64,000 bases of DNA from Eledone cirrhosa. Lineage: Eukaryota. Position 1 is the first letter of the stretch; every line of letters starts with the position of its first letter. A program made the translations under genes and the position numbers. The notes below the pieces were generated by a model that searched no databases, was not told where the DNA came from, and saw only the letters and a program-made list of their open reading frames with translations. The DNA is taken from positions 365,242,001-365,306,000 of the forward strand of contig OZ024742.1 in the NCBI GenBank assembly GCA_964016885.1, written 5' to 3'. This document shows, in pieces, positions 3,861 to 56,396 of the stretch.

Positions 3861-3862
<2 letters not shown>

Positions 3863-4053
3863 AACAAGTAAGACCCCGACGGCTGAGCTCAAGCCGTTTC
3901 GACGGCTAATTCTGGACTCCAGAATTAGCCGTCGAAACAGCTTGAGCTCAGCCGTCGGGGTCTTACTTGTTCCTATTACCCACTCTACTACCCTAAGTAT
4001 TGAGTACTTTGGTGCGTTATGGTCCACCTGGTTCCTTACCACATTTCCTTCGT
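3861..4053 (+). mobile_element. Family A pLTR insertion, second copy
   Basis: Near-perfect palindrome 3861-3973 with the same tail as 268-458; flanked by (TA)n. Confidence 0.7.
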
Positions 4054-4180: not shown

Positions 4181-4648
4181 ATATACATATATTTTTTTAA
4201 AAAATTTTTTTTAAAAAGATATTTTCTTATTTTACGTCCTTTATATTATTGTTCTGCATTCTCCTGCATTGAACCACCTAGGTACTATGACATAACCTGT
4301 GTATTTGCTGGCATGGGCGTGCATCTGTGCGCTTATGTTAGTTGATATATTAAATTATCTATATTTATCTCCAAATCACTGATTTGTCGAGCAAACTTGT
4401 CAAAACCACTTCTAAAAAAATTTTTTTTTGGGGTGTTAGTAGGCGTCAGTCATCTTACCATCCCATTCCTTCTAACTAGCCTCTGTGTCACGTGATTGAT
4501 TCTTTAGAATCGGCCATTTGACTTGAAGCAGTGAGAATTTCGGTACATAGAATCCAGTCCTCGCAAGCTGTTCGATCTACCGAATTATTATTATTTTTAT
4601 ATGAGCCGCCAGTGTCCGCGCATTGCCTGGAGACTTAACTGAGAATAG

Positions 4649-4730
4649 ACTCCCTGATGACGCAATGAATTCTCGACAGTTGGATTACGTAACTGTCTTT
4701 ATCCCATTGCAGAAACTAATTAGTTGGAGT
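4649..4730 (+). ncRNA. Type I hammerhead ribozyme
   Basis: ACTCC-CTGATGA-C-GCAATG...CATTGC-A-GAAA-CTAATTAG-TT-GGAGT. Palindromic stem III ACTAATTAGT; inner helix GACAGTT/AACTGTC. Confidence 0.85.
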
Positions 4731-5209
4731 GAAAATTTAAGTAAGTAAAAAAATTTTTTTTAAAAATTTTTTTAAAAAGATATTTTCTTATTTTACGCCC
4801 TTTATATTATTGTTCTGCATTCTCCTGCATTGAACCACCTAGGTACTATGACATAACCTGTGTATTTGCTGGCATGGGCGTGCATCTGTGCGCTTATGTT
4901 AGTTGATATATTAAATTATCTATATTTATCTCCAAATCACTGATTTGTCGAGCAAACTTGTCAAAACCACTTCTAAAAAAATTTTTTTTTGGGGTGTTAG
5001 TAGGCGTCAGTCATCTTACCATCCCATTCCTTCTAACTAGCCTCTGTGTCACGTGATTGATTCTTTAGAATCGGCCATTTGACTTGAAGCAGTGAGAATT
5101 TCGGTATATAGAATCCAGTCCTCGCAAGCTGTTCGATCTACCGAATTATTATTATTTTTATATGAGCCGCCAGTGTCCGCGCATTGCCTGGAGACTTAAC
5201 TGAGAATAG

Positions 5210-5291
5210 ACTCCCTGATGACGCAATGAATTCTCGACAGTTGGATTACGTAACTGTCTTTATCCCATTGCAGAAACTAATTAGTTGGAGT
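5210..5291 (+). ncRNA. Type I hammerhead ribozyme (second tandem copy)
   Basis: Identical to 4649-4730. Confidence 0.85.
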
Positions 5292-5360
5292 GAAAATTTA
5301 AGTAAGTAAAAAAATTTTTTTTAAAAATTTTTTTAAAAAGATATTTTCTTATTTTACGTC

Positions 5361-5445
<85 letters not shown>

Positions 5446-9934: not shown

Positions 9935-11406
9935 CAGGAGAACATGATATGAAGGCTAAAAAAACACTTGTTGATAGTGCAGTTTTAAATCAACATATGA
10001 AAAGTGGTTTTAGATTGATGTGTGATATTGGGAAAAATATTTTATTTAGAGAGGGGGGGGAGAGAAAAGGATGAAAAGGGAAGGAGATGAGAGGGAGAGA
10101 TGGGTGATAGAGAGAAAGAGATAGTTTTTATAACTGAGAGGAGATATATTTTATATAGAGGGGTTGAAAACCGTTGGAAGATACTGTATAAATTAAAAAT
10201 TTTGAAAATTAACGAAGGGAGGATATGTGCGAGGAAAAAATATATTATATTTAGGGAGGGGGGGGGGTTGGAAAGGATGAAAAAAAGGGGAGGAGATGAG
10301 AGTGAAGGTGGAAAGGGAGAGATGGGTGATAGAGAGAAAGAGATAGTTTTTATAACTGAGAAAAAGATATAATGTTTTAATATAGAGAGGTTGGGAACCG
10401 TTGGAAGATAATGTATAAATTAAAGGAATTTGAAAATTAACGAAGGGAAATTATGTATGAAGATAGAGAGAAAAAATAATAATTGTGGGTGAATATTCTA
10501 ACGTCAAAAGAAGAAATGTAGGAATTTTAAAATTAGCAAAGAGAAAAAGTTTATGTGTAGAAGGATTTGAGAAAAATAATGTGAAGTTAAAGTTTGTATA
10601 TTGAATTCATATGTATTAATAATGAGTTCGTTGATGGGGAGAAAAAAATAATAATAAATTAAGGATGAAATTGAGATTAAAAAGATTTATGATAGAGAGA
10701 AAAAATAATAATGATTGCGGATGAATACTCAAAATGTCAAAAACAAATGTTATTGTTTTACGAGGAGATAGAATGAGGGTAATGAGTAAACGAGTATTAT
10801 AGAGTGTATAATGCCCTTTAAAGTAAGGTAGATGGGTATATTTTAAAGAATATATGAGTATATATTAAAAAAAATATATAATAATAAATTAAGGATGAAA
10901 TTGAGATTAAAAAGATTTATGATAGAGAGAAAAAATAATAATGATTGCGGATGAATATTCAAAATGTCAAAAACAAATGTTATTGTTTTACGAGAAGATA
11001 GAATGAGGGTAATGAGTAAACGAGTATTATAGAGTGTATAATGCCCTTTAAAGTAAGGTAGATGGGTATATTTTAAAGAGGTGTATGTATATGTGCCTTT
11101 GAGAAAAGATTCTAAATTGATAAAGAATTGAATATTAACTGTATACTTTGTGAAAAGTTCTATGGAATTTATGCAGGCAGATGGAAAACAAATCCGAGCG
11201 TCTATTTATTATGGATTCTAGGTTAGAGATAATGGTAAATTTTTCATTTAGGCAGAGATTACAGATTTTAGATAGAGAGCTGTTCAAGTACGAGGATGCA
11301 GAAGAAATCTTTTTCCAAAAGATGTTATATTTAATGTTTTTGTCTTTTAAGGAATTGGTGCTAGTTATAATTTTACATTCATAAATTTTACATTCATAAA
11401 TTAAGC

Positions 11407-11790
11407 CTCGATAAAAACTTAATTTATGAATGTAAAATTATAACTAGCACCAATTCCTTCACCTATTTTGGCTCCACTTCCACCTCTTTTAAAGCTCGTC
11501 TCTATAATCATCATTCATCTTTCAAATACAAACTTAAAAGAACTAACACTGCTCTCTCAGAACTCATATGGTCCTTAAAAGACAAAAACATTAAATATAA
11601 CATCTTTTGGAAAAAGATTTCTTCTGCATCCTCGTACTTGAACAGCTCTCTATCTAAAATCTGTAATCTCTGCCTAAATGAAAAATTTACCATTATCTCT
11701 AACCTAGAATCCATAATAAATAGACGCTCGGATTTGTTTTCCATCTGCCTGCATAAATTCCATAGAACTTTTCACAAAGTATACAGTTAA
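11407..11790 (+). pseudogene. GIY-YIG endonuclease domain of a Penelope-like element (Naiad-like Cys/His pattern); not in the ORF track
   Basis: Open frame LDKNLIYECK..TYFGSTSTSFKARLYNHHSSF..TALSELIWSLK..ICNLCLNEKFTII..INRRSDLFSICLHK..*; 5'-truncated. Confidence 0.9.
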
Positions 11791-12757
11791 TATTCAATTC
11801 TTTATCAATTTAGAATGTTTTCTCAAAGGCACATATACATACACCTCTTTAAAATATACCCATCTACCTTACTTTAAAGGGCATTATACACTCTATAATA
11901 CTCGTTTACTCATTACCCTCATTCTATCTTCTCGTAAAACAATAACATTTGTTTTTGACATTTTGAATATTCATCCGCAATCATTATTATTTTTTCTCTC
12001 TATCATAAATCTTTTTAATCTCAATTTCATCCTTAATTTATTATTATTTTTTTCTCCCCATCAACGAACTCATTATTAATACATATGAATTCAATATACA
12101 AACTTTAACTTCACATTATTTTTCTCAAATCCTTCTACACATAAACTTTTTCTCTTTGCTAATTTTAAAATTCCTACATTTCTTCTTTTGACGTTAGAAT
12201 ATTCACCCACAATTATTATTTTTTTCTCTCTATCTTCATACATAATTTCCCTTCGTTAATTTTCAAATTCCTTTAATTTATACATTATCTTCCAACGGTT
12301 CCCAACCTCTCTATATTAAAACATTATATCTTTTTCTCAGTTATAAAAACTATCTCTTTCTCTCTATCACCCATCTCTCCCTTTCCACCTTCACTCTCAT
12401 CTCCTCCCCTTTTTTTCATCCTTTCCACCCCCCCCTCCCTAAATATAATATATTTTTTCCTCGCACATATCCTCCCTTCGTTAATTTTCAAAATTTTTAA
12501 TTTATACAGTATCTTCCAACGGTTTTCAACCCCTCTATATAAAATATATCTCCTCTCAGTTATAAAAACTATCTCTTTCTCTCTATCACCCATCTCTCCC
12601 TCTCATCTCCTTCCCTTTTCATCCTTTTCTCTCCCCCCCTCTCTAAATAAAATATTTTTCCCAATATCACACATCAATCTAAAACCACTTTTCATATGTT
12701 GATTTAAAGCTGCACTATCAACAAGTGTTTTTTTAGCCTTCATATCATGTTCTCCTG

Positions 12758-12824
12758 TTTTATCTGATGAAAACACAAATATTATTGTTTGATGATGTTT
12801 GTTTTTGAAATGCGCATAATAAAA
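12758..12824 (+). ncRNA. Type I hammerhead ribozyme (family B)
   Basis: TTTTAT-CTGATGA-16-position stem II with several G-U pairs-GAAA-TGCGCA-TA-ATAAAA; palindromic ATGCGCAT. Confidence 0.9.
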
Positions 12825-12947
12825 TATATTGAACTCCTTTAACCATCTTTTGATCTTATATTATGCATACTCCAGTCCCACAAACTGTAGAGTGCTTCTT
12901 ATCCGATATCTGCATTGCTTTATTGTACTACAATAAAACTCACCTCC

Positions 12948-12986
<39 letters not shown>

Positions 12987-31149: not shown

Positions 31150-31575
31150 CTGTAACTCCTACCTGCCGGATAAGTGCCCACTACAAAATAGATGCCTCTG
31201 AATCAAGTATTGTGTACCAGTGTACTATAAATTCAGGCAACTTAACATGGCACTACATAGGTTCTACGGCAGGGAGTTAAAAAAAGATAGTACGTCCACA
31301 GACACTCTATGAAGAACCGTAGACTAGAGAACTCAACAACGCTGGCCAATAAAATCTGGCAGCTTAGGGGCACAAAACAGGAATATGGGATTAGCTGGTC
31401 AAAATTATCGGGAGCAAGGGCCTACAACAATGGAATGTCATACTGTGGGCTTTGCAATATGGAGCTATTCCACATTTTAAAATATGATAAGGTGCTGCTT
31501 AACAGCAAAATAGAAAGATCAATGTTCTGTAGGAACAAAGCAGCTACCAAGTTCACAAATTTCAAACCAACATGA
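31150..31575 (+). pseudogene. GIY-YIG endonuclease (same Cys pattern as 11407-11790), disrupted
   Basis: SIVYQC..YIGSTAGS, TTLANKIWQLR, YCGLCNMELFHI, LLNSKIERSMFC. Confidence 0.85.
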
Positions 31576-43168: not shown

Positions 43169-43397
43169 TAGGGCGGGTAAAATTTCCGAGATCCATGGAC
43201 GAGTTCTCTCCAGCGGTCTCTGTCCATCATTATCGCTGCCATGTCCTGCGTCTCCAACAGACCAGTATCTGTCCTTAGGGCATCAACATACGTTAACCTT
43301 GGTCTTACTCTTCCAGTGTGTCCATGTAGGGGCTCCCACAGGAGCACTGAGTGCAATGTCAACTCTGGGTGGCGGTGAGCATATCCAGCTAACCTCA
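43168..43397 (-). mobile_element. RTE-X-like LINE 3' fragment; inverted twin at 43966-44182 (+)
   Basis: [36 protein letters not shown]. Confidence 0.7.
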
Positions 43398-43894: not shown

Positions 43895-44183
43895 GTATAT
43901 ATATATATATATTAATAAATATAAATAAATATTTATATATATATGTATATATATAAATATATATATGAGGTTAGCTGGATATGCTCACCGTCACCCAGAG
44001 TTGACATTGCACTCAGTGCTCCTGTGTGAGCCCCTACATGGACACACTGGAAGAGGATGACCAAGGTTCATGTATGTTGATGCCCTAAGGACAGATACTG
44101 GTCTGTTGGAGACGCAGGACATGGCAGCGATAATGAGGGACAGAGACCGCTGGAAAGAACTCCTCCATGGATCTCGGGAATTT

Positions 44184-44760
44184 TATATTATGTAACTATA
44201 TTTATCCCATTACAGAAACTAATTAGTTGGAGTGAAAATTTTAGTAAGTAAGTTGATTTTTAATTTTTTTAATTTTCTTATTTTACGTCTTTCATATAAT
44301 TGTTCTGCATTCACCTGCATAGAACCACATAGGTACTAAGACATAACTTATATATTTGCTAGCATGAGTGTACATCTGTACACATATGTTGGTAGATGTA
44401 CTAATTTTCTATATTTAACTCCAAATTATTTGTTGAGCAAAACTTGCCAAAATTTACTGCTGTTTCATGGTAGTAGTAGGCTCTTGTCATAATACCACCC
44501 CTCTCCTAACTGATTAACCTCGGTGTCACGTGATTGATTCTTTAGAATCTGCCACTGACCAGAGGCAGTGAAATTTTTTCAGTGCTCCGGAATTTAGTCC
44601 TCGCTAGCTTCATTCAATCTACTGAATTATTATTTTTATATGGGTTCCTAGTGTCCGCGCATTGCCTGGGAACTTAGCTGAGAATAGACTACCTGATGAC
44701 GTAATGAATTCTCTATAGTTATATATATTATGTAACTATATTTATCCCATTACAGAAACT
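44184..44760 (+). mobile_element. Circularly permuted 540-bp relative of the 561-bp retrozyme-like unit
   Basis: 37-bp direct terminal repeat (44184-220 = 44724-760). The hammerhead is split across the ends, with CTGATGA at 44693. Confidence 0.8.
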
Positions 44761-44798
44761 GGGTAGGATATTAAAATTTAGGAAAAACATTTTAGGCA

Positions 44799-44887
<89 letters not shown>

Positions 44888-45708: not shown

Positions 45709-48700
45709 CCTACCCGATACTGCTGTATATGTACCTACCCGACACTGCTGTGTATGTACCACCTGACACTGCTGTGTATGTACCTACCCGACACTTCTGT
45801 ATATGTACCTACCCGACACTTCTGTATATGTACCTACTCGACACTGCTGTATATGTACCTACCCGACACTGCTGTGTATGTACCTACCCGACACTGCTGT
45901 ATATGTACCTACCCGACACTTCTGTATATGTACCTACCCGACACTGCTGTATATGTACCTACCCGACACTTCTGTATATGTACCTACTCGACACTTCTGT
46001 ATATGTACCTACCCGACACTGCTGTGTATGTACCTACCCGACACTGCTGTATATGTACCTACGCGACACTTCTGTATATGTACCTACCGACACTGCTGAA
46101 TATGTACCTACCCGACACTAATGTGTATTACCTACCCGACACTGCTGTATATGTACCTACCCGAGACTACTGTGTATGTAGCTACCAGACACTAATGTGT
46201 ATGTACCTACCGACACTGCTGTGTATGTACCTACCCGACACTGCTGTATATGTACCTACCCGACACTGCTGTGTATGTACCTACCCTACACTGCTGTGTA
46301 TGTAGCTACCCGACACTACTGTGTATGTACCTACCCGACACTGCTGTATATGTACCTACATGACACTGCTGTGTATGTACCTACCCGACACTGCTGTGTA
46401 TGTACCTACCCGACACTGCTGTATATGTACCTACCCGACACTGCTGTGTATGTACCTACCCTACACTGCTGTGTATGTACCTACCCGACACTGCTGTGTA
46501 TGTACCTACCCGACACTGCTGTGTATGTACCTACCCGACACTGCTGTATATGTACCTACCCGACACTTCTGTGTATGTACCTACCTGACACTGCTGTCTA
46601 TGTACCTACCGACACTGCTGTGTATGTACCTACCCGACACTGCTGTGTATGTACCTACCCGACACTGCTGTATATGTACCTACCCGACACTTCTGTGTAT
46701 GTACCTACCTGACACTGCTGTGTATGTACTTACCCGACACTGCTGTGTATGTACCTACCCGACACTGCTGTGTATGTACCTACCCGACACTGCTGTATAT
46801 GTACCTACCCGACACTGCTGTGTATGTACCAACCCGACACTGCTGTATATGTACCTACCCGAGACTGCTGTATATGTACCTACTGACACTGCTGTATATG
46901 TACCTACCCGACACTGCTGTGTATGTACCTACCCGACACTGCTGTGTATGTACCACCAGACACTGCTGTGTATGTACCTACCCGACACTGCTGTATATGT
47001 ACCTACCCGACACTGCTGTGTATGTACCTACCCTACACTGCTGTGTATGTACCTACCCGACACTACTGTGTATGTACCTACCCGACACTGCTGTATATGT
47101 ACCTACCTGACACTGCTGTGTATGTACCTACCCGACACTGCTGTGTATGTACCTACCCGACACTGCTGTGTATGTACCTACCGACACTGCAGTATATGTA
47201 CCTACCCGACACTGCTGTATATGTACCTACCCGACACTGCTGTGTATGTACCTACCGACACTGCTGTGTATGTACCTACCCGACACTGCTGTGTATGTAC
47301 CTACACGACACTGCTGTGTATGTACCTACCAGACACTGCTGTGTATGTACCTACCCGACACTGCTGTGTATGTACCTACCCGACACTGCTGTATATGTAC
47401 CTACCCGACACTTCTGTGTATGTACCTACCTGACACTGCTGTCTATGTACCTACCGACACTGCTGTGTATGTACCTACCCGACACTGCTGTGTATGTACC
47501 TACCCGACACTGCTGTATATGTACCTACCCGAGACTACTGTGTATGTAGCTACCAGACACTAATGTGTATGTACCTACCGACACTGCTGTGTATGTACCT
47601 ACCCGACACTGCTGTATATGTACCTACCCTACACTGCTGTGTATGTAGCTACCCGACACTACTGTGTATGTACCTACCCGACACTGCTGTATATGTACCT
47701 ACATGACACTGCTGTGTATGTACCTACCCGACACTGCTGTGTATGTACCTACCCGACACTGCTGTATATGTTCCTACCCGACACTGCTGTGTATGTACCT
47801 ACCCTACACTGCTGTGTATGTACCTACCCGACACTGCTGTGTATGTACCTACCCGACACTGCTGTGTATGTACCTACCCGACACTGCTGTATATGTACCT
47901 ACCCGACACTTCTGTGTATGTACCTACCTGACACTGCTGTCTATGTACCTACCGACACTGCTGTGTATGTACCTACCCGACACTGCTGTGTATGTACCTA
48001 CCCGACACTGCTGTATATGTACCTACCCGACACTTCTGTGTATGTACCTACCTGACACTGCTGTGTATGTACCTACCGACACTGCAGTGTATGTACCTAC
48101 CCGACACTGCTGTGTATGTACCTACCCGACACTGCTGTGTATGTACCTACCCGACACTGCTGTATATGTACCTACCCGACACTGCTGTGTATGTACCAAC
48201 CCGACACTGCTGTATATGTACCTACCCGAGACTGCTGTATATGTACCTACTGACACTGCTGTATATGTACCTACCCGACACTGCTGTGTATGTACCTACC
48301 CGACACTGCTGTGTATGTACCACCAGACACTGCTGTGTATGTACCTACCCGACACTGCTGTATATGTACCTACCCGACACTGCTGTGTATGTACCTACCC
48401 TACACTGCTGTGTATGTACCTACCCGACACTACTGTGTATGTACCTACCCGACACTGCTGTATATGTACCTACCTGACACTGCTGTGTATGTACCTACCC
48501 GACACTGCTGTGTATGTACCTACCCGACACTGCTGTGTATGTACCTACCGACACTGCAGTATATGTACCTACCCGACACTGCTGTATATGTACCTACCCG
48601 ACACTGCTGTGTATGTACCTACCGACACTGCTGTGTATGTACCTACCCGACACTGCTGTGTATGTACCTACACGACACTGCTGTGTATGTACCTACCAGA

Positions 48701-51700
48701 CACTGCTGTGTATGTACCTACCCGACACTGCTGTGTATGTACCTACCCGACACTGCTGTATATGTACCTACCCGACACTTCTGTGTATGTACCTACCTGA
48801 CACTGCTGTCTATGTACCTACCGACACTGCTGTGTATGTACCTACCCGACACTGCTGTGTATGTACCTACCCGACACTGCTGTATATGTACCTACCCGAG
48901 ACTACTGTGTATGTAGCTACCAGACACTAATGTGTATGTACCTACCGACACTGCTGTGTATGTACCTACCCGACACTGCTGTATATGTACCTACCCTACA
49001 CTGCTGTGTATGTAGCTACCCGACACTACTGTGTATGTACCTACCCGACACTGCTGTATATGTACCTACATGACACTGCTGTGTATGTACCTACCCGACA
49101 CTGCTGTGTATGTACCTACCCGACACTGCTGTATATGTTCCTACCCGACACTGCTGTGTATGTACCTACCCTACACTGCTGTGTATGTACCTACCCGACA
49201 CTGCTGTGTATGTACCTACCCGACACTGCTGTGTATGTACCTACCCGACACTGCTGTATATGTACCTACCCGACACTTCTGTGTATGTACCTACCTGACA
49301 CTGCTGTCTATGTACCTACCGACACTGCTGTGTATGTACCTACCCGACACTGCTGTGTATGTACCTACCCGACACTGCTGTATATGTACCTACCCGACAC
49401 TTCTGTGTATGTACCTACCTGACACTGCTGTGTATGTACCTACCGACACTGCAGTGTATGTACCTACCCGACACTGCTGTGTATGTACCTACCCGACACT
49501 GCTGTATATGTACCTACCCGACACTGCTGTGTATGTACCAACCCGACACTGCTGTATATGTACCTACCCGAGACTGCTGTATATGTACCTACTGACACTG
49601 CTGTATACGTACCTACCCGACACTGCTGTGTATGTACCTACCCGACACTGCTGTGTATGTACCACCAGACACTGCTGTGTATGTACCTACCCGACACTGC
49701 TGTATATGTACCTACCCGACACTGCTGTGTATGTACCTACCGACACTGCTGTGTATGTACCTACCCGACACTGCTGTGTATGTACCTACACGACACTGCT
49801 GTGTATGTACCTACCAGACACTGCTGTGTATGTACCTACCCGACACTGCTGTGTATGTACCTACCTGACACTGCTGTGTATGTACCTACCCGACATTGCT
49901 GTATATGTACCTACATGACACTGCTGTATATGTACCTACATGATACTGCTGTGTATGTACCTACCCGACACTGCTGTGTATGTACCTACCCGACACTGCT
50001 GCGTATGTACCTACCCGACACTGCTGTATATGTAGCACCAGACACTAATGTGTATGTACCTACCGGCTCTGCTGTGTATGTACCTACCCGACACTAATGT
50101 GTATGTACCTACCCGACACTGCTGTGTATGTACCTACCCGACACTGCTGTATATGTAGCACCAGACACTGCTGTGTATGTACCTACCGGCTCTGCTGTGT
50201 ATGTACCTACCCGACACTAATGTGTATGTACCTACCCGACACTGCTGTGTATCTACCTACCCGACACTGCTGTATATGTAGCACCAGACACTAATGTGTA
50301 TGTACCTACCGGCTCTGCTGTGTATGTACCTACCCGACACTAATGTGTATGTACCTACCCGACACTGCTGTGTATGTACCTACCCGACACTGCTGTGTAT
50401 GTACCTACCCGACACTGCTGTGTATGTACCTACCCGACACTTCTGTATATGTACCTACCCGACACTGCTGTATATGTACCTACCCGACACTTCTGTATAT
50501 GTACCTACTCGACACTTCTGTATATGTACCTACCCGACACTGCTGTGTATGTACCTACCCGACACTGCTGTATATGTACCTACGCGACACTTCTGTATAT
50601 GTACCTACCGACACTGCTGAATATGTACCTACCCGACACTAATGTGTATTACCTACCCGACACTGCTGTATATGTACCTACCCGAGACTACTGTGTATGT
50701 AGCTACCAGACACTAATGTGTATGTACCTACCGACACTGCTGTGTATGTACCTACCCGACACTGCTGTATATGTACCTACCCGACACTGCTGTGTATGTA
50801 CCTACCCTACACTGCTGTGTATGTAGCTACCCGACACTACTGTGTATGTACCTACCCGACACTGCTGTATATGTACCTACATGACACTGCTGTGTATGTA
50901 CCTACCCGACACTGCTGTGTATGTACCTACCCGACACTGCTGTATATGTACCTACCCGACACTGCTGTGTATGTACCTACCCTACACTGCTGTGTATGTA
51001 CCTACCCGACACTGCTGTGTATGTACCTACCCGACACTGCTGTGTATGTACCTACCCGACACTGCTGTATATGTACCTACCCGACACTTCTGTGTATGTA
51101 CCTACCTGACACTGCTGTGTATGTACTTACCGACACTGCTGTGTATGTACCTACCCGACACTGCTGTGTATGTACCTACCCGACACTGCTGTATATGTAC
51201 CTACCCGACACTGCTGTGTATGTACCAACCCGACACTGCTGTATATGTACCTACCCGAGACTGCTGTATATGTACCTACTGACACTGCTGTATATGTACC
51301 TACCCGACACTGCTGTGTATGTACCTACCCGACACTGCTGTGTATGTACCACCAGACACTGCTGTGTATGTACCTACCCGACACTGCTGTATATGTACCT
51401 ACCCGACACTGCTGTGTATGTACCTACCCTACACTGCTGTGTATGTACCTACCCGACACTACTGTGTATGTACCTACCCGACACTGCTGTATATGTACCT
51501 ACCTGACACTGCTGTGTATGTACCTACCCGACACTGCTGTGTATGTACCTACCCGACACTGCTGTGTATGTACCTACCGACACTGCAGTATATGTACCTA
51601 CCCGACACTGCTGTATATGTACCTACCCGACACTGCTGTGTATGTACCTACCGCCACTGCTGTGTATGTACCTACACGACACTGCTGTGTATGTACCTAC

Positions 51701-54700
51701 CAGACACTGCTGTGTATGTACCTACCCGACACTGCTGTGTATGTACCTACCCGACACTGCTGTATATGTACCTACCCGACACTTCTGTGTATGTACCTAC
51801 CTGACACTGCTGTCTATGTACCTACCGACACTGCTGTGTATGTACCTACCCGACACTGCTGTGTATGTACCTACCCGACACTGCTGTATATGTACCTACC
51901 CGAGACTACTGTGTATGTAGCTACCAGACACTAATGTGTATGTACCTACCGACACTGCTGTGTATGTACCTACCCGACACTGCTGTATATGTACCTACCC
52001 TACACTGCTGTGTATGTAGCTACCCGACACTACTGTGTATGTACCTACCCGACACTGCTGTATATGTACCTACATGACACTGCTGTGTATGTACCTACCC
52101 GACACTGCTGTGTATGTACCTACCCGACACTGCTGTATATGTTCCTACCCGACACTGCTGTGTATGTACCTACCCTACACTGCTGTGTATGTACCTACCC
52201 GACACTGCTGTGTATGTACCTACCCGACACTGCTGTGTATGTACCTACCCGACACTGCTGTATATGTACCTACCCGACACTTCTGTGTATGTACCTACCT
52301 GACACTGCTGTCTATGTACCTACCGACACTGCTGTGTATGTACCTACCCGACACTGCTGTGTATGTACCTACCCGACACTGCTGTATATGTACCTACCCG
52401 ACACTTCTGTGTATGTACCTACCTGACACTGCTGTGTATGTACCTACCGACACTGCTGTGTATGTACCTACCCGACACTGCTGTGTATGTACCTACCCGA
52501 CACTGCTGTATATGTACCTACCCGACACTGCTGTGTATGTACCAACCCGACACTGCTGTATATGTACCTACCCGAGACTGCTGTATATGTACCTACTGAC
52601 ACTGCTGTATACGTACCTACCCGACACTGCTGTGTATGTACCTACCCGACACTGCTGTGTATGTACCACCAGACACTGCTGTGTATGTACCTACCCGACA
52701 CTGCTGTATATGTACCTACCCGACACTGCTGTGTATGTACCTACCCTACACTGCTGTGTATGTACCTACCCGACACTGCTGTGTATGTACCTACCGACAC
52801 TGCTGTGTATGTACCTACCCGACACTGCTGTGTATGTACCTACACGACACTGCTGTGTATGTACCTACCAGACACTGCTGTGTATGTACCTACCCGACAC
52901 TGCTGTGTATGTACCTACCTGACACTGCTGTGTATGTACCTACCCGACATTGCTGTATATGTACCTACATGACACTGCTGTATATGTACCTACATGACAC
53001 TGCTGTGTATGTACCTACCCGACACTGCTGTGTATGTACCTACCCGACACTGCTGCGTATGTACCTACCCGACACTGCTGTATATGTAGCACCAGACACT
53101 AATGTGTATGTACCTACCGGCTCTGCTGTGTATGTACCTACCCGACACTAATGTGTATGTACCTACCCGACACTGCTGTGTATGTACCTACCCGACACTG
53201 CTGTATATGTAGCACCAGACACTAATGTGTATGTACCTACCGGCTCTGCTGTGTATGTACCTACCCGACACTAATGTGTATGTACCTACCCGACACTGCT
53301 GTGTATGTACCTACCCGACACTGCTGTATATGTAGCACCAGACACTAATGTGTATGTACCTACCGGCTCTGCTGTGTATGTACCTACCCGACACTAATGT
53401 GTATGTACCTACCCGACACTGCTGTGTATGTACCTACCCGACACTGCTGTATATGTACCACCAGACACTAATGTGTATGTACCTACCCGACACTGCTGTG
53501 TATGTACCTACCCGACACTGCTGTATATGTACCACCAGACACTAATGTGTATGTACCTACCGACCCTGCTGTGTATGTACCTACCCGACACTGCTGTATA
53601 TGTACCTACTGACACTGCTGTATATGTACCTACCCGACACTGCTGTGTATGTACCTACCCGACTCTGCTGTGTATGTACCTTCCCGACACTGCTGTATAT
53701 GTACCTACCCGACACTGCTGTGTATGTACCAACCCGACACTGCTGTATATGTACCTACCCGAGACTGCTGTATATGTACCTACTGACACTGCTGTATATG
53801 TACCTACCCGACACTGCTGTGTATGTACCTACCCGACACTGCTGTATATGTACCACCAGACACTAATGTGTATGTACCTACCAGACACTGCTGTATATGT
53901 ACCACCAGACACTAATGTGTATGTACCTACCCGACACTGCTGTATATGTACCTACCCGACACTGCTGTGTATGTACCTACCCGACACTGCTGTATATGTA
54001 CCTACCAACACTGCTGTGTATGTACCTACCCTACACTGATGTATATGTACCTACCCGACACTGTTGTATATGTACCTACCCGACACTGCTGTATATGTAC
54101 CTACCCGACACTGCTGTGTATGTACCTACCGACACTGCTGAATATGTACCTACCAATACTGCTGTGTATGTACCTACCAGACACTTCTGTATATGTACCT
54201 ACCAACACTGCTGTATATGTACCTACCTGACACTGCAGTATATGTACCTACCCGAGACTGCTGTATATGTACCACCAGACACTAATGTGTATGTACCTAC
54301 CCGACACTGCTGTATATGTACCTACCCGACACTGCTGTGTATGTACCTACCCGACACTGCTGTATATGTGCCTACCCGACACTGCCGTGTATGTACCTAC
54401 CCGACACTGCTGTGTATGTACCTACCCGACACTGCAGTATATGTACCTACCCGACACTGATGTGTATGTACCTACTGACACTGCTGTGTATGTACCTACC
54501 CGACACTCCTGTATATGTACCTACCCGACACTGCTGTGTATGTACGACCTGGCACTTCTGTATATGTACCTACCCGACACTGCTGTGTATGTACCTACCC
54601 AACACTGCTGTATATGTACCTACCCGACACTGCTGTATATGTACCTACCCGACACTGCTGTGTATGTACCTACCGACACTGCTGTGTATGTACCTACCCG

Positions 54701-56396
54701 ACACTGCTGTATATGTACCTACCCGACACTGCTGTATATGTACCTACCCGACACTGCTGTGTATGTACCTACCCGACACTGCTGTGTATGTACCTACCGA
54801 CACTGCTGTGTATGTACCTACCCGACACTGCTGTGTATGTACCTACCCGACACTGCTGTGTATGTTTCTACCGACACTTCTGTGTATGTACCTACCCGAC
54901 ACTGCAGTATATGTACCTACCCGACACTGCTGTATATGTACCTACCCGACACTGCTGTGTATGTACCTACCGACACTGCTGTGTATGTACCTACCGACAC
55001 TTCTGTGTATGTACCTACCCGACACTGCTGTGTATGTACCTACCCGACACTGCTGTGTATGTTTCTACCGACACTTCTGTGTATGTACCTACCTGACACT
55101 GATGTGTATGTACCTACTGACACTGCTGTATATGTACCTACCGACACTTCTGTGTATGTACCTACCTGACACTGCTGTGTATGTACCTACTGACACTGCT
55201 GTGTATGTACCTACCCGACACTGCTGTATATGTACCTACCCGGCACTGCTGTGTATGTACCACCTGACACTGCTGTATATGTACCTACCCGACACTGCTG
55301 TGTATGTACCACCTGACACTGCTGTGTATGTACCTACCGACACTTCTGTGTATGTACCTACCCGACACTGCTGTATATGTACCTACCGACACTGCTGTGT
55401 ATGTACCTACCCGACACTGCTGTGTATGTACCTACCCGACACTGCTGTATATGTACCTACCCGACACTGCTGTGTATGTACAACCTGACACTGCTGTGTG
55501 TGTACCTACCCGACACTGCTGTGTATGTACCTACCCGACACTGCTGTGTGTGTACCTACCCGACACTGCTGTATATGTACCTACCGACACTGCTGTATAT
55601 GTACCTACCCGACTCTGCTGTGTATGTACCTACCAACACTGCTGTGTATGTACCTACCCGACACTGCTGTATATGTACCTACTGACACTGCTGTATATGT
55701 ACCTACCCGACACTGCTGTGAATGTACCTACCCTACACTGCTGTGTATGTACCTACCCGACACTGCTGTATATGTACCTACCGACACTGCTGTATATGTA
55801 CCTACCCGACACTGCTGTGTATGTACCTACTGACCCTGCTGTGTATGTACCTACCCGACACTGCTGTATATGTACCTACCTGACACTGCTGTGTATGTAC
55901 CTACCCGACACTGCTGTGTGTGTACCTACCCGACACTGCTGTATATGTAATTACCTGACACTGCTGTATATGTACCTACCGACACTGCTGTATATGTACC
56001 TACCCGACACTGCTGTGTATGTACCACCTGACACTGCTGTGTATGTACCTACCCGACACTGCTCTATATGTACCTACTGACACTGCTGTATATGTACCTA
56101 CCCGACACTGCTGTATATGTACCTACTGACCCTGCTGTGTATGTACCTACGCGACACTGCTGTATATGTACCTACCCGACACTGATGTATATGTACCTAC
56201 TGACACTGCTGTGTATGTACCTACCCGACACTGCTGTGTATGTTCCACCTGACACTGCTGTGTATGTACCTACTGACACTGCTGTATATGTACCTACCCG
56301 ACACTGCTGTATATGTACCTACCCGACACTGCTGTATATGTACCTACCCGTCACTGCTGTATATGTACCTACCCGACACTGCTGTATATGTACCTA
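45709..56396. repeat. 25-bp satellite/minisatellite CCTACCCGACACTGCTGTRTATGTA, about 430 units, with higher-order repeats
   Basis: Read directly; includes 24-bp variants; blocks recur at offsets of 1367, 3004 and 4521 bp. Confidence 0.98.

What the first reader, a model, noticed from the sequence alone, without database searches (positions are those of the whole stretch)
44184..44760. Circularly permuted, covarying relative of the 561-bp unit
Seen: this 540-bp copy starts and ends inside the ribozyme with a 37-bp terminal redundancy, a different phase from 4191. It has three compensatory pair changes in stem II: GCAATG/CATTGC becomes GTAATG/CATTAC, and GACAGTT/AACTGTC becomes TATAGTT/AACTATA. 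Inference: the RNA structure is under selection, and the copy was reverse-transcribed from a circular or multimeric template.
Basis: partly seen in the sequence, partly recalled or inferred. Interest (0 to 1): 0.75.

Follow-up and report, generated by a model that had tools for sequence, protein, structure and literature searches.

The report
Truncated Hydra-Penelope-type hammerhead retrozyme copy
This is one clipped copy of a protein-free repeat family with thousands of copies in this animal genome; its predicted self-cutting RNA fold keeps its base pairs through matched changes, and most copies end at two fixed points beside a small predicted hairpin also seen in Hydra-type Penelope retrotransposons, which likely copy it, while the odd start and end of this one copy are likely later damage rather than proof of a circular RNA.

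Summary
In detail: a 577-bp insert with a 540-bp period, an exact 37-bp end repeat and three compensatory stem II pairs. The insert belongs to a multi-copy subfamily (B), in which the three pair changes are fixed (28-29 of 29 units). The wider family has at least 5,345 intact cores, and stem II covaries across subfamilies. The phase argument fails. In 68 unselected loci, 102 of 116 arms end at one of two fixed 3' sites, and 5' ends are scattered. Head-to-head insertions pair one short and one long end (77 against 2). Ends at the ribozyme, like this copy's, are background-rare. Each fixed end lies about 6 nt before a bulged hairpin. Similar hairpins follow the ends of two Hydra-type Penelope families here, so these are the likely mobilisers. 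Locus-private variants shared by both arms favour a single-unit, possibly circular, template, but this is unproven. The hammerhead is non-canonical and untested. This scan reported this family and architecture before on other DNA of the same genome.

The parts
44184..44760 (+). Subfamily B retrozyme-like insert, 1.07 units (unit positions 496-540, then 1-532), truncated at both ends
   Evidence: 95-98% identical to 29 B units
44184..44233 (+). 3' half of the first hammerhead-like motif (stem II 3' strand, GAAA, palindromic stem III, predicted cleavage after GUU at 44228, stem I 3' strand); its 5' half is missing
   Evidence: sequence; model match 76 bits
44297..44298 (+). Family 'short' (S) 3' end site, read through in this copy
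   Evidence: 51 of 116 unselected arms end here
44303..44324 (+). Bulged hairpin 1 (YTC, 4 bp, loop, 4 bp, 2-nt bulge, GAR), about 6 nt after the S site; predicted initiation signal
   Evidence: 11 of 13 representatives; chance 3.6e-5 per base in shuffles; fold z -1.9
44355..44396 (+). Long hairpin inside the 'tail' between the two end sites
   Evidence: fold z -5.4, 0 of 200 shuffles; paired variants visible across subfamilies
44410..44413 (+). Family 'long' (L) 3' end site, read through in this copy
   Evidence: 51 of 116 unselected arms end in this window
44419..44437 (+). Bulged hairpin 2, about 6 nt after the L site; predicted initiation signal
   Evidence: 13 of 13 representatives; not the minimum-energy fold of this copy alone, z -0.1
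44688..44760 (+). 5' part of the second hammerhead-like motif: stem I 5' strand with the C-to-A change at 44691, CUGAUGA (44693-99), C 44700, stem IIa (44701-06/44748-53), internal loop, stem IIb (44714-20/44734-40), A 44754, GAAAC (44755-59); stem III and cleavage site missing
43967..44185 (+). LINE-like 3' fragment that has lost its usual last 11 or so bases and its repeat tail at the junction (2-nt overlap with the insert)
   Evidence: 8 of 8 other distinct full-end copies held continue with the usual LINE end; the LINE label is recalled from the translated motif, no Pfam hit
44761..44801 (+). Unique right flank, followed by (TA)n at 44802-44882
   Evidence: 1 match in the genome at up to 2 mismatches for its first 28 bases
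4191..5365 (+). Subfamily A array, 2.1 units of 561 bp, single arm with a standard S end, set in (TA)n
11153..12960 (.). Head-to-head remnant of a Hydra-like Penelope family whose short end is followed by the same bulged hairpin (about 12870-12893)
   Evidence: tblastn to the Hydra-type ORF, 39%; motif scan; fold

Best explanation
The stretch is a doubly truncated copy of one subfamily of an abundant non-coding tandem element with a covarying hammerhead-like fold, likely mobilised in trans by a Hydra-clade Penelope-like retrotransposon, and its unusual phase is likely a by-product of truncation. Shown: thousands of copies; at least 11 subfamilies at 70-91% identity; head-to-head arms; two fixed 3' ends about 115 nt apart, one per arm; scattered 5' ends; (TA)n at the ends; a bulged hairpin about 6 nt past each end; stem II covariation. 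Inferred: a Hydra-type enzyme cuts both strands of a (TA)n site and primes reverse transcription internally on the element's RNA at the two hairpin-marked sites, one per strand. The two 5'-truncated cDNAs are then joined back to back. The template is likely a single unit read repeatedly (circle) or a uniform multimer. For this copy, the likeliest history (about 0.55) is an ordinary insertion into the LINE's TA tail followed by deletions that removed the LINE end and the standard 3' end. It can no longer form a complete ribozyme in the usual order.
For: At least 5,345 exact cores, control 0. Subfamilies. 102 of 116 arms end in 22 of 540 positions; 5' ends in 60-nt bins are not different from uniform, p=0.14. 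Short-plus-long pairs against same-end pairs: 34:1, 26:1 and 17:0. 108 of 108 short ends are followed by (TA)n. Hairpin motif in 11 of 13 and 13 of 13 representatives, chance about 5e-4 per 15-nt window. The same motif follows the short end of one Hydra-like family; a related form (same closing pairs and bulge, different upper stem, read by eye) follows both ends of a second family. The ORF of the second family has RWR, DKT and CxCX5C, matching the Hydra features in PMC8557442 section 11. A Neptune-like family here also has two ends but gave no motif in 3 of 3 copies scanned. Two internal start sites bounding a 'tail' are shown in vitro for an anole Penelope element (PMC11167929). Only 5 of 19 filter-passing copies really stop at the ribozyme, among more than 6,500 cores.
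Against: No autonomous element with a terminal repeat homologous to this unit was found. The best alignments to 30 Hydra-type and 31 Neptune-type loci were short and AT-rich, so the partner rests on a small motif. The strict motif detector missed the second Hydra family. Hairpin 2 is not the favoured fold of this copy in isolation, and both small stems are invariant, so they show conservation and not covariation. The hammerhead has a C.A mismatch at the base of stem II and a GUU site, and no Rfam hammerhead matched. Two separate deletions are needed for this copy. The hairpin lead came from earlier scan notes and was then checked here.
Confidence: 0.72

Rival explanations
1. One reading: this copy was reverse-transcribed from a circular or multimeric RNA at a free phase, so its ends are primary.
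For: The copy spans a unit junction and ends 8 nt before the predicted cleavage site. One other B copy runs from position 12 to 535 (L043). Family-level data favour uniform multi-unit templates: within-locus differences 0.37 (same arm) and 0.61 (other arm) against 3.28 between loci.
Against: 3' phases are fixed in 88% of arms. Ends at the ribozyme are about 10 in more than 6,500 after allowing for the filter, no more than the roughly 0.2% expected from scattered atypical ends. The left junction also deleted the end of the neighbouring LINE-like fragment.
Confidence: 0.12
2. This copy is a break-repair patch: a DNA break at the LINE end was filled from another genomic array or from a cDNA, without the endonuclease, giving two random ends and a target deletion in one event.
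For: Both ends are non-standard; neither junction is a TA run; there is a 2-nt overlap on the left and loss of target sequence. One event explains both ends.
Against: A non-TA 5' flank is common anyway: 22 of 47 single-arm loci. 14 of 116 arms have other 3' ends, several visibly from deletions. No donor locus was identified (best match 98%).
Confidence: 0.3
3. The family template is linear read-through RNA from tandem arrays, and long arrays grow after insertion by unequal exchange. No circle is involved, and the ribozyme is weak or dispensable.
For: In two loci a variant sits in just one unit of each arm (L065, L089). Period-2 or period-3 patterns occur within single arms (L067, L064, L063). 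Unselected arms are short: median about 500 nt, 5 of 116 over 1,100 nt. Hammerhead cleavage was not needed for insertion in vitro in PMC11167929. 8 of 9 Xenopus dimers did not cleave in the 2026 preprint.
Against: Locus-private variants occupy every covered unit of both arms in L063, L170, L068 and L089, which requires a single-unit bottleneck. The core, stem I and stem III stay nearly invariant across subfamilies that differ by 9-30%.
Confidence: 0.4
4. The compensatory pairs arise by template-switch correction in an inverted repeat, not by selection on RNA structure.
For: The stems are short inverted repeats. The B loop has drifted to a TA-rich palindrome. The shuffle control ignores relatedness.
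Against: The asymmetric internal loops and the C.A mismatch are kept rather than perfected. The unpaired core is conserved. G-U one-sided changes are frequent in stem IIb (18 and 12 sequences at two pairs), which fits RNA pairing.
Confidence: 0.1

Closest known systems
Metazoan non-LTR retrozymes (Cervera and de la Pena 2020, PMC7229834, passages read; Li, Clavereau and Pollet 2026, 10.64898/2026.07.22.740005, parts 1-3 of 5 read)
   Same: Non-coding, low-GC tandem units with one type I hammerhead-like motif each; thousands of dispersed copies; short palindromic stem III; proposed dependence on Penelope-like elements. The axolotl HHR_Amex2 motif also has a mismatch at the base of helix II.
   Different: Units of 510-561 bp against about 170-400 nt in the 2020 paper (the preprint lists families up to 972 bp). 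Stem II is about 50 nt with an internal loop. The two-armed layout with paired short and long ends and the twin hairpins are not described in the parts read. Cleavage and circles are untested here.
Hydra-clade Penelope-like elements (Craig et al. 2021, PMC8557442; passages and section 11 read)
   Same: Partial tandems, 5' truncation, an inverted 5'-truncated partner, a tail at one end only, and insertion into (TA)n.
   Different: No ORF. The tail is 112-122 nt against 30-40 bp. No alignable terminal repeat with the Hydra-like families seen here.
Anole Poseidon element PAc (Frangieh et al. 2024, PMC11167929; parts 1-2 of 4 read)
   Same: Two internal reverse-transcription start sites bound the tail; both target strands are extended; the target is AT-rich.
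   Different: That element is autonomous and of a different clade, and its start lies in an AC-rich stem-loop. Here each site precedes a bulged hairpin, and the two sites are used almost strictly one per arm.

Membership tests
Type I hammerhead ribozyme | Core CUGANGA and GAAA with the A15.1-U16.1 pair and three stems, stem I open | tested here: met
   Family consensus form; in this copy the halves are split and incomplete
Type I hammerhead ribozyme | Purine-pyrimidine pair closing stem II next to the core (definition recalled) | tested here: not met
   C.A opposite each other in 139 of 140 locus-type counts, T.A in 1; it could also be read as one extra base on each side of a G-C pair
Type I hammerhead ribozyme | NUH cleavage triplet | tested here: met
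   GUU; listed as a cleavable NUH site in PMC3138052 (passages); that it is a weaker site is recalled
Type I hammerhead ribozyme | Match to an Rfam hammerhead model | tested here: not met
   0 matches at gathering score in the window; none at E up to 10 in 4500-4900
Type I hammerhead ribozyme | Self-cleavage | not testable with these tools
   Needs in vitro transcription
Non-LTR retrozyme | Non-coding tandem units with one hammerhead each, dispersed at high copy number | tested here: met
   no ORF of 170 aa or more from the unit in the loci scanned
Non-LTR retrozyme | Expressed as linear and circular monomer RNA | not testable with these tools
   No RNA run was listed; this says nothing either way
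Non-autonomous Penelope-like element | Partial tandems, 5' truncation, inverted partner, tail at one end, (TA)n target | tested here: met
   for the family; this copy lacks the standard 3' end
Non-autonomous Penelope-like element | Terminal repeat homologous to an autonomous partner | tested here: inconclusive
   No homology to the 1 Neptune-like and 1 Hydra-like family sampled in depth; other Hydra-like families were seen only as fragments; only the hairpin motif is shared

The most novel reading that the evidence does not exclude
A Hydra-type Penelope enzyme recognises two bulged hairpins on one small circular RNA and primes rolling-circle reverse transcription from both strands of a cut (TA)n site, one strand at each hairpin. 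A non-canonical, oversized hammerhead, possibly activated by a loop-loop contact (GAGAA with UUCUC) or by protein, makes the circle. The twin hairpin would then be a portable signal that lets unrelated non-coding RNAs hijack the enzyme, and slippage at the long start site would seed new (TC)n microsatellites.
Probability: 0.3. Interest if true: 0.75.

Novelty: new variant of a known kind. Interest (0 to 1): 0.45.

Why it matters
How animal retrozymes are copied into DNA is proposed but not shown in the papers read. This family gives exact, testable start sites, a candidate RNA signal, a candidate enzyme clade with near-full-length frames in the same genome, and a naturally covarying hammerhead variant that standard models miss. 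The single copy flagged adds little on its own: it is a damaged outlier, and the family was already reported by this scan.

Tried and rejected
Rfam: no family at gathering score, and only a chance-level H/ACA match (E 0.46) on the ribozyme. The idea that the 42-bp right flank continues a variant ribozyme was rejected: it can pair with stem I in a fold, but it lacks the U of the cleavage pair and is unique in the genome. The Neptune-like family was considered as partner and rejected for lack of homology and of the motif. Enrichment of 5' ends just after the cleavage site appeared in the top-scoring B set (p=9e-5), but that set is selected for full units in that phase; it was not significant in the unselected set (20 of 116 in the first bin, p=0.14). 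A fixed offset between arms was suggested by 2 loci only and was not confirmed, because the other shared columns were homopolymer misalignments. No RNA holder was listed. Laying four unlabelled contig sets on the locus gave no piece bridging the junctions and no empty allele. A Pfam accession recalled for a Penelope domain was not in the library. Literature searches listed no paper on this family, on strict short/long arm pairing or on a twin-hairpin signal. The library lacks most subscription papers and Repbase, and the supplements of the 2026 preprint and of Craig 2021 were not read; they may list related elements.

Full report
Observation. The window holds an exact 37-bp repeat at 44184 and 44724, so the insert is 577 bp with a 540-bp period. 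It is 77% identical to the 561-bp array at 4191-5365. The three double changes in stem II are in the sequence. Unit positions below are counted from the base after the predicted GUU cleavage site, in the numbering of the 540-bp unit. The insert runs from position 496 through one junction to position 532; the 4191 array runs from 28 to 69 over 2.1 units.

The insert is not a lone variant. The genome (G000, 3.0 Gb) gave 194 matches to the 561-bp unit and 161 to the 540-bp unit among only 40 scored candidates each. An exact core pattern matched 5,345 places, with 0 for the reversed control. Clustering 230 full units gave 12 clusters. One was a unit interrupted by a foreign insertion and was dropped, leaving 11 subfamilies at 70-91% identity. 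The three pair changes are fixed in subfamily B (29, 28 and 29 of 29 units). The window copy differs from the B majority at 11 positions, one of which breaks a stem I pair.

Covariation. Anchored on the invariant core without alignment, stem IIa occurs in four fully paired versions in 64, 31, 23 and 9 loci. Thirteen other versions are singletons, 10 of them with a broken pair (130 loci with a core). On a covariance-model alignment of 131 matches (119 distinct) from 67 loci plus the window, 94.6% of cells pair and 8 of 19 pairs change on both sides. The covariation score is 0.236 against 0.106 for shuffles (0 of 500) and at most 0.067 for slid partners. These counts lean towards the model and ignore relatedness, so they support selection without proving it. 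The motif is hammerhead-like but non-canonical: a C.A mismatch at the base of stem II, a GUU site, a palindromic stem III, a stem II of about 50 nt, and no Rfam match. Catalysis is untested.

Phase map. I mapped 141 loci: all 68 loci holding the first 100 listed core matches (contig C1, first 65.5 Mb; selected only for an intact core and cleavage flank), 36 of the 40 top A loci, and 37 of the 40 top B loci. The four A loci left out and one B locus were held only in overlapping pieces, one B locus was counted in the first set, and one was not fetched. In the unselected set, 51 of 116 arms end at positions 66-73 (short), 51 at 180-193 (long) and 14 elsewhere. The 5' ends do not differ from uniform (p=0.14). 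Head-to-head insertions pair a short with a long end 34 times against 1 same-end pair; the top sets give 26:1 and 17:0. All 108 short ends are followed by (TA)n. This is the Penelope footprint: partial tandems, an inverted truncated partner and a tail at one end (PMC8557442, passages). In an anole element the tail equals the stretch between two internal reverse-transcription start sites (PMC11167929).

This copy is an outlier. It has neither standard end. A filter for copies that deviate right after GAAAC found 19 places. Fourteen are small internal deletions or duplications and 5, including this one, really stop. The filter should pass about half of random flanks (my estimate), giving about 10 among more than 6,500 cores. 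That is no more than the background of scattered ends. On the left, the insert is fused to a LINE-like fragment that lacks the end seen in 8 of 8 other distinct full-end copies held. On the right lie 41 unique bases and a TA tract. Deletion after a normal insertion (about 0.55) or a break-repair patch (about 0.3) is likelier than priming at a ribozyme-cut end or a free phase (about 0.12). The 37-bp redundancy is simply what a 1.07-unit piece of a tandem array looks like.

Template. In family A, full units differ by 0.37 substitutions within an arm, 0.61 between arms of one locus and 3.28 between loci (118 units, homopolymers masked). Variants private to a locus fill every covered unit of both arms in L063, L170, L068 and L089. 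That implies a single-unit bottleneck and fits rolling-circle copying of a monomer. Against it, two loci carry a variant in just one unit per arm, three arms show period-2 or period-3 patterns, and unselected arms are mostly under two units. I put a circular template at about even odds.

Mobiliser. Earlier scan notes suggested a hairpin signal shared with Hydra-type elements, which I then tested. A bulged hairpin begins about 6 nt after the short end in 11 of 13 representatives and after the long end in 13 of 13, against 3.6e-5 per base in 600 shuffles. The same motif follows the short end of a Hydra-like family in this window. A related form, read by eye and missed by the strict detector, follows both ends of an abundant family whose ORF has the RWR, DKT and CxCX5C features of the Hydra clade. 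A young Neptune-like family also has two ends but gave no motif in 3 copies. No partner with a homologous terminal repeat was found.

Verdict. This is a new variant of the known retrozyme and Penelope relationship (PMC7229834, passages; preprint 10.64898/2026.07.22.740005, parts 1-3 of 5). The covariation is real, the phase of this copy is uninformative, and the interest lies in the family's paired ends and start signal, which this scan has reported before elsewhere in the genome.

Noticed in passing
long ends of mapped arms (L032-L176): Long ends carry a (TC)n run before the TA tract in 26 of 31 B-type arms but in 0 of 20 arms of the main A cluster and 0 of 17 arms of three older subfamilies. 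This tracks the presence of a short TCTC seed at the start site and suggests slippage during priming or seeded microsatellite growth.
   Followed up: partly
window 43178-43395 and 43967-44185: Two inverted, 95%-identical copies of the same LINE-like 3' fragment with the same 5' truncation point and similar upstream flank: probably a local inverted duplication older than the insert.
   Followed up: partly
window 45709-56396: 10.7-kb satellite of a 25-bp unit, 431 copies.
   Followed up: no
window 3861-3973: A long inverted repeat of about 55-bp arms just upstream of the 4191 array, seen by eye.
   Followed up: no
window 11153-12960 and 31203-31572: Remnants of Hydra-like Penelope elements; the first is head-to-head and its family has its own hammerhead-like core with a long stem II.
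   Followed up: partly
L178-L207: Young, very abundant Neptune-like family (96-98% identical copies) with its own hammerhead-like motif and two fixed ends about 58 nt apart; L183/L184 form a short-plus-long head-to-head pair.
   Followed up: partly
L050, L125, L136: Independent subfamily copies lie within 100 bases of each other, consistent with repeated targeting of the same TA tracts.
   Followed up: no
window 44679-44686 and 44707-44713: GAGAA upstream of stem I is complementary to UUCUC in the stem II internal loop and both are conserved across subfamilies: a possible base-paired tertiary contact, with no covariation evidence.
   Followed up: no
window 44243-44252: Conserved GTAAGT just after the ribozyme resembles a splice donor; Penelope 5' regions are reported to hold an intron.
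   Followed up: no
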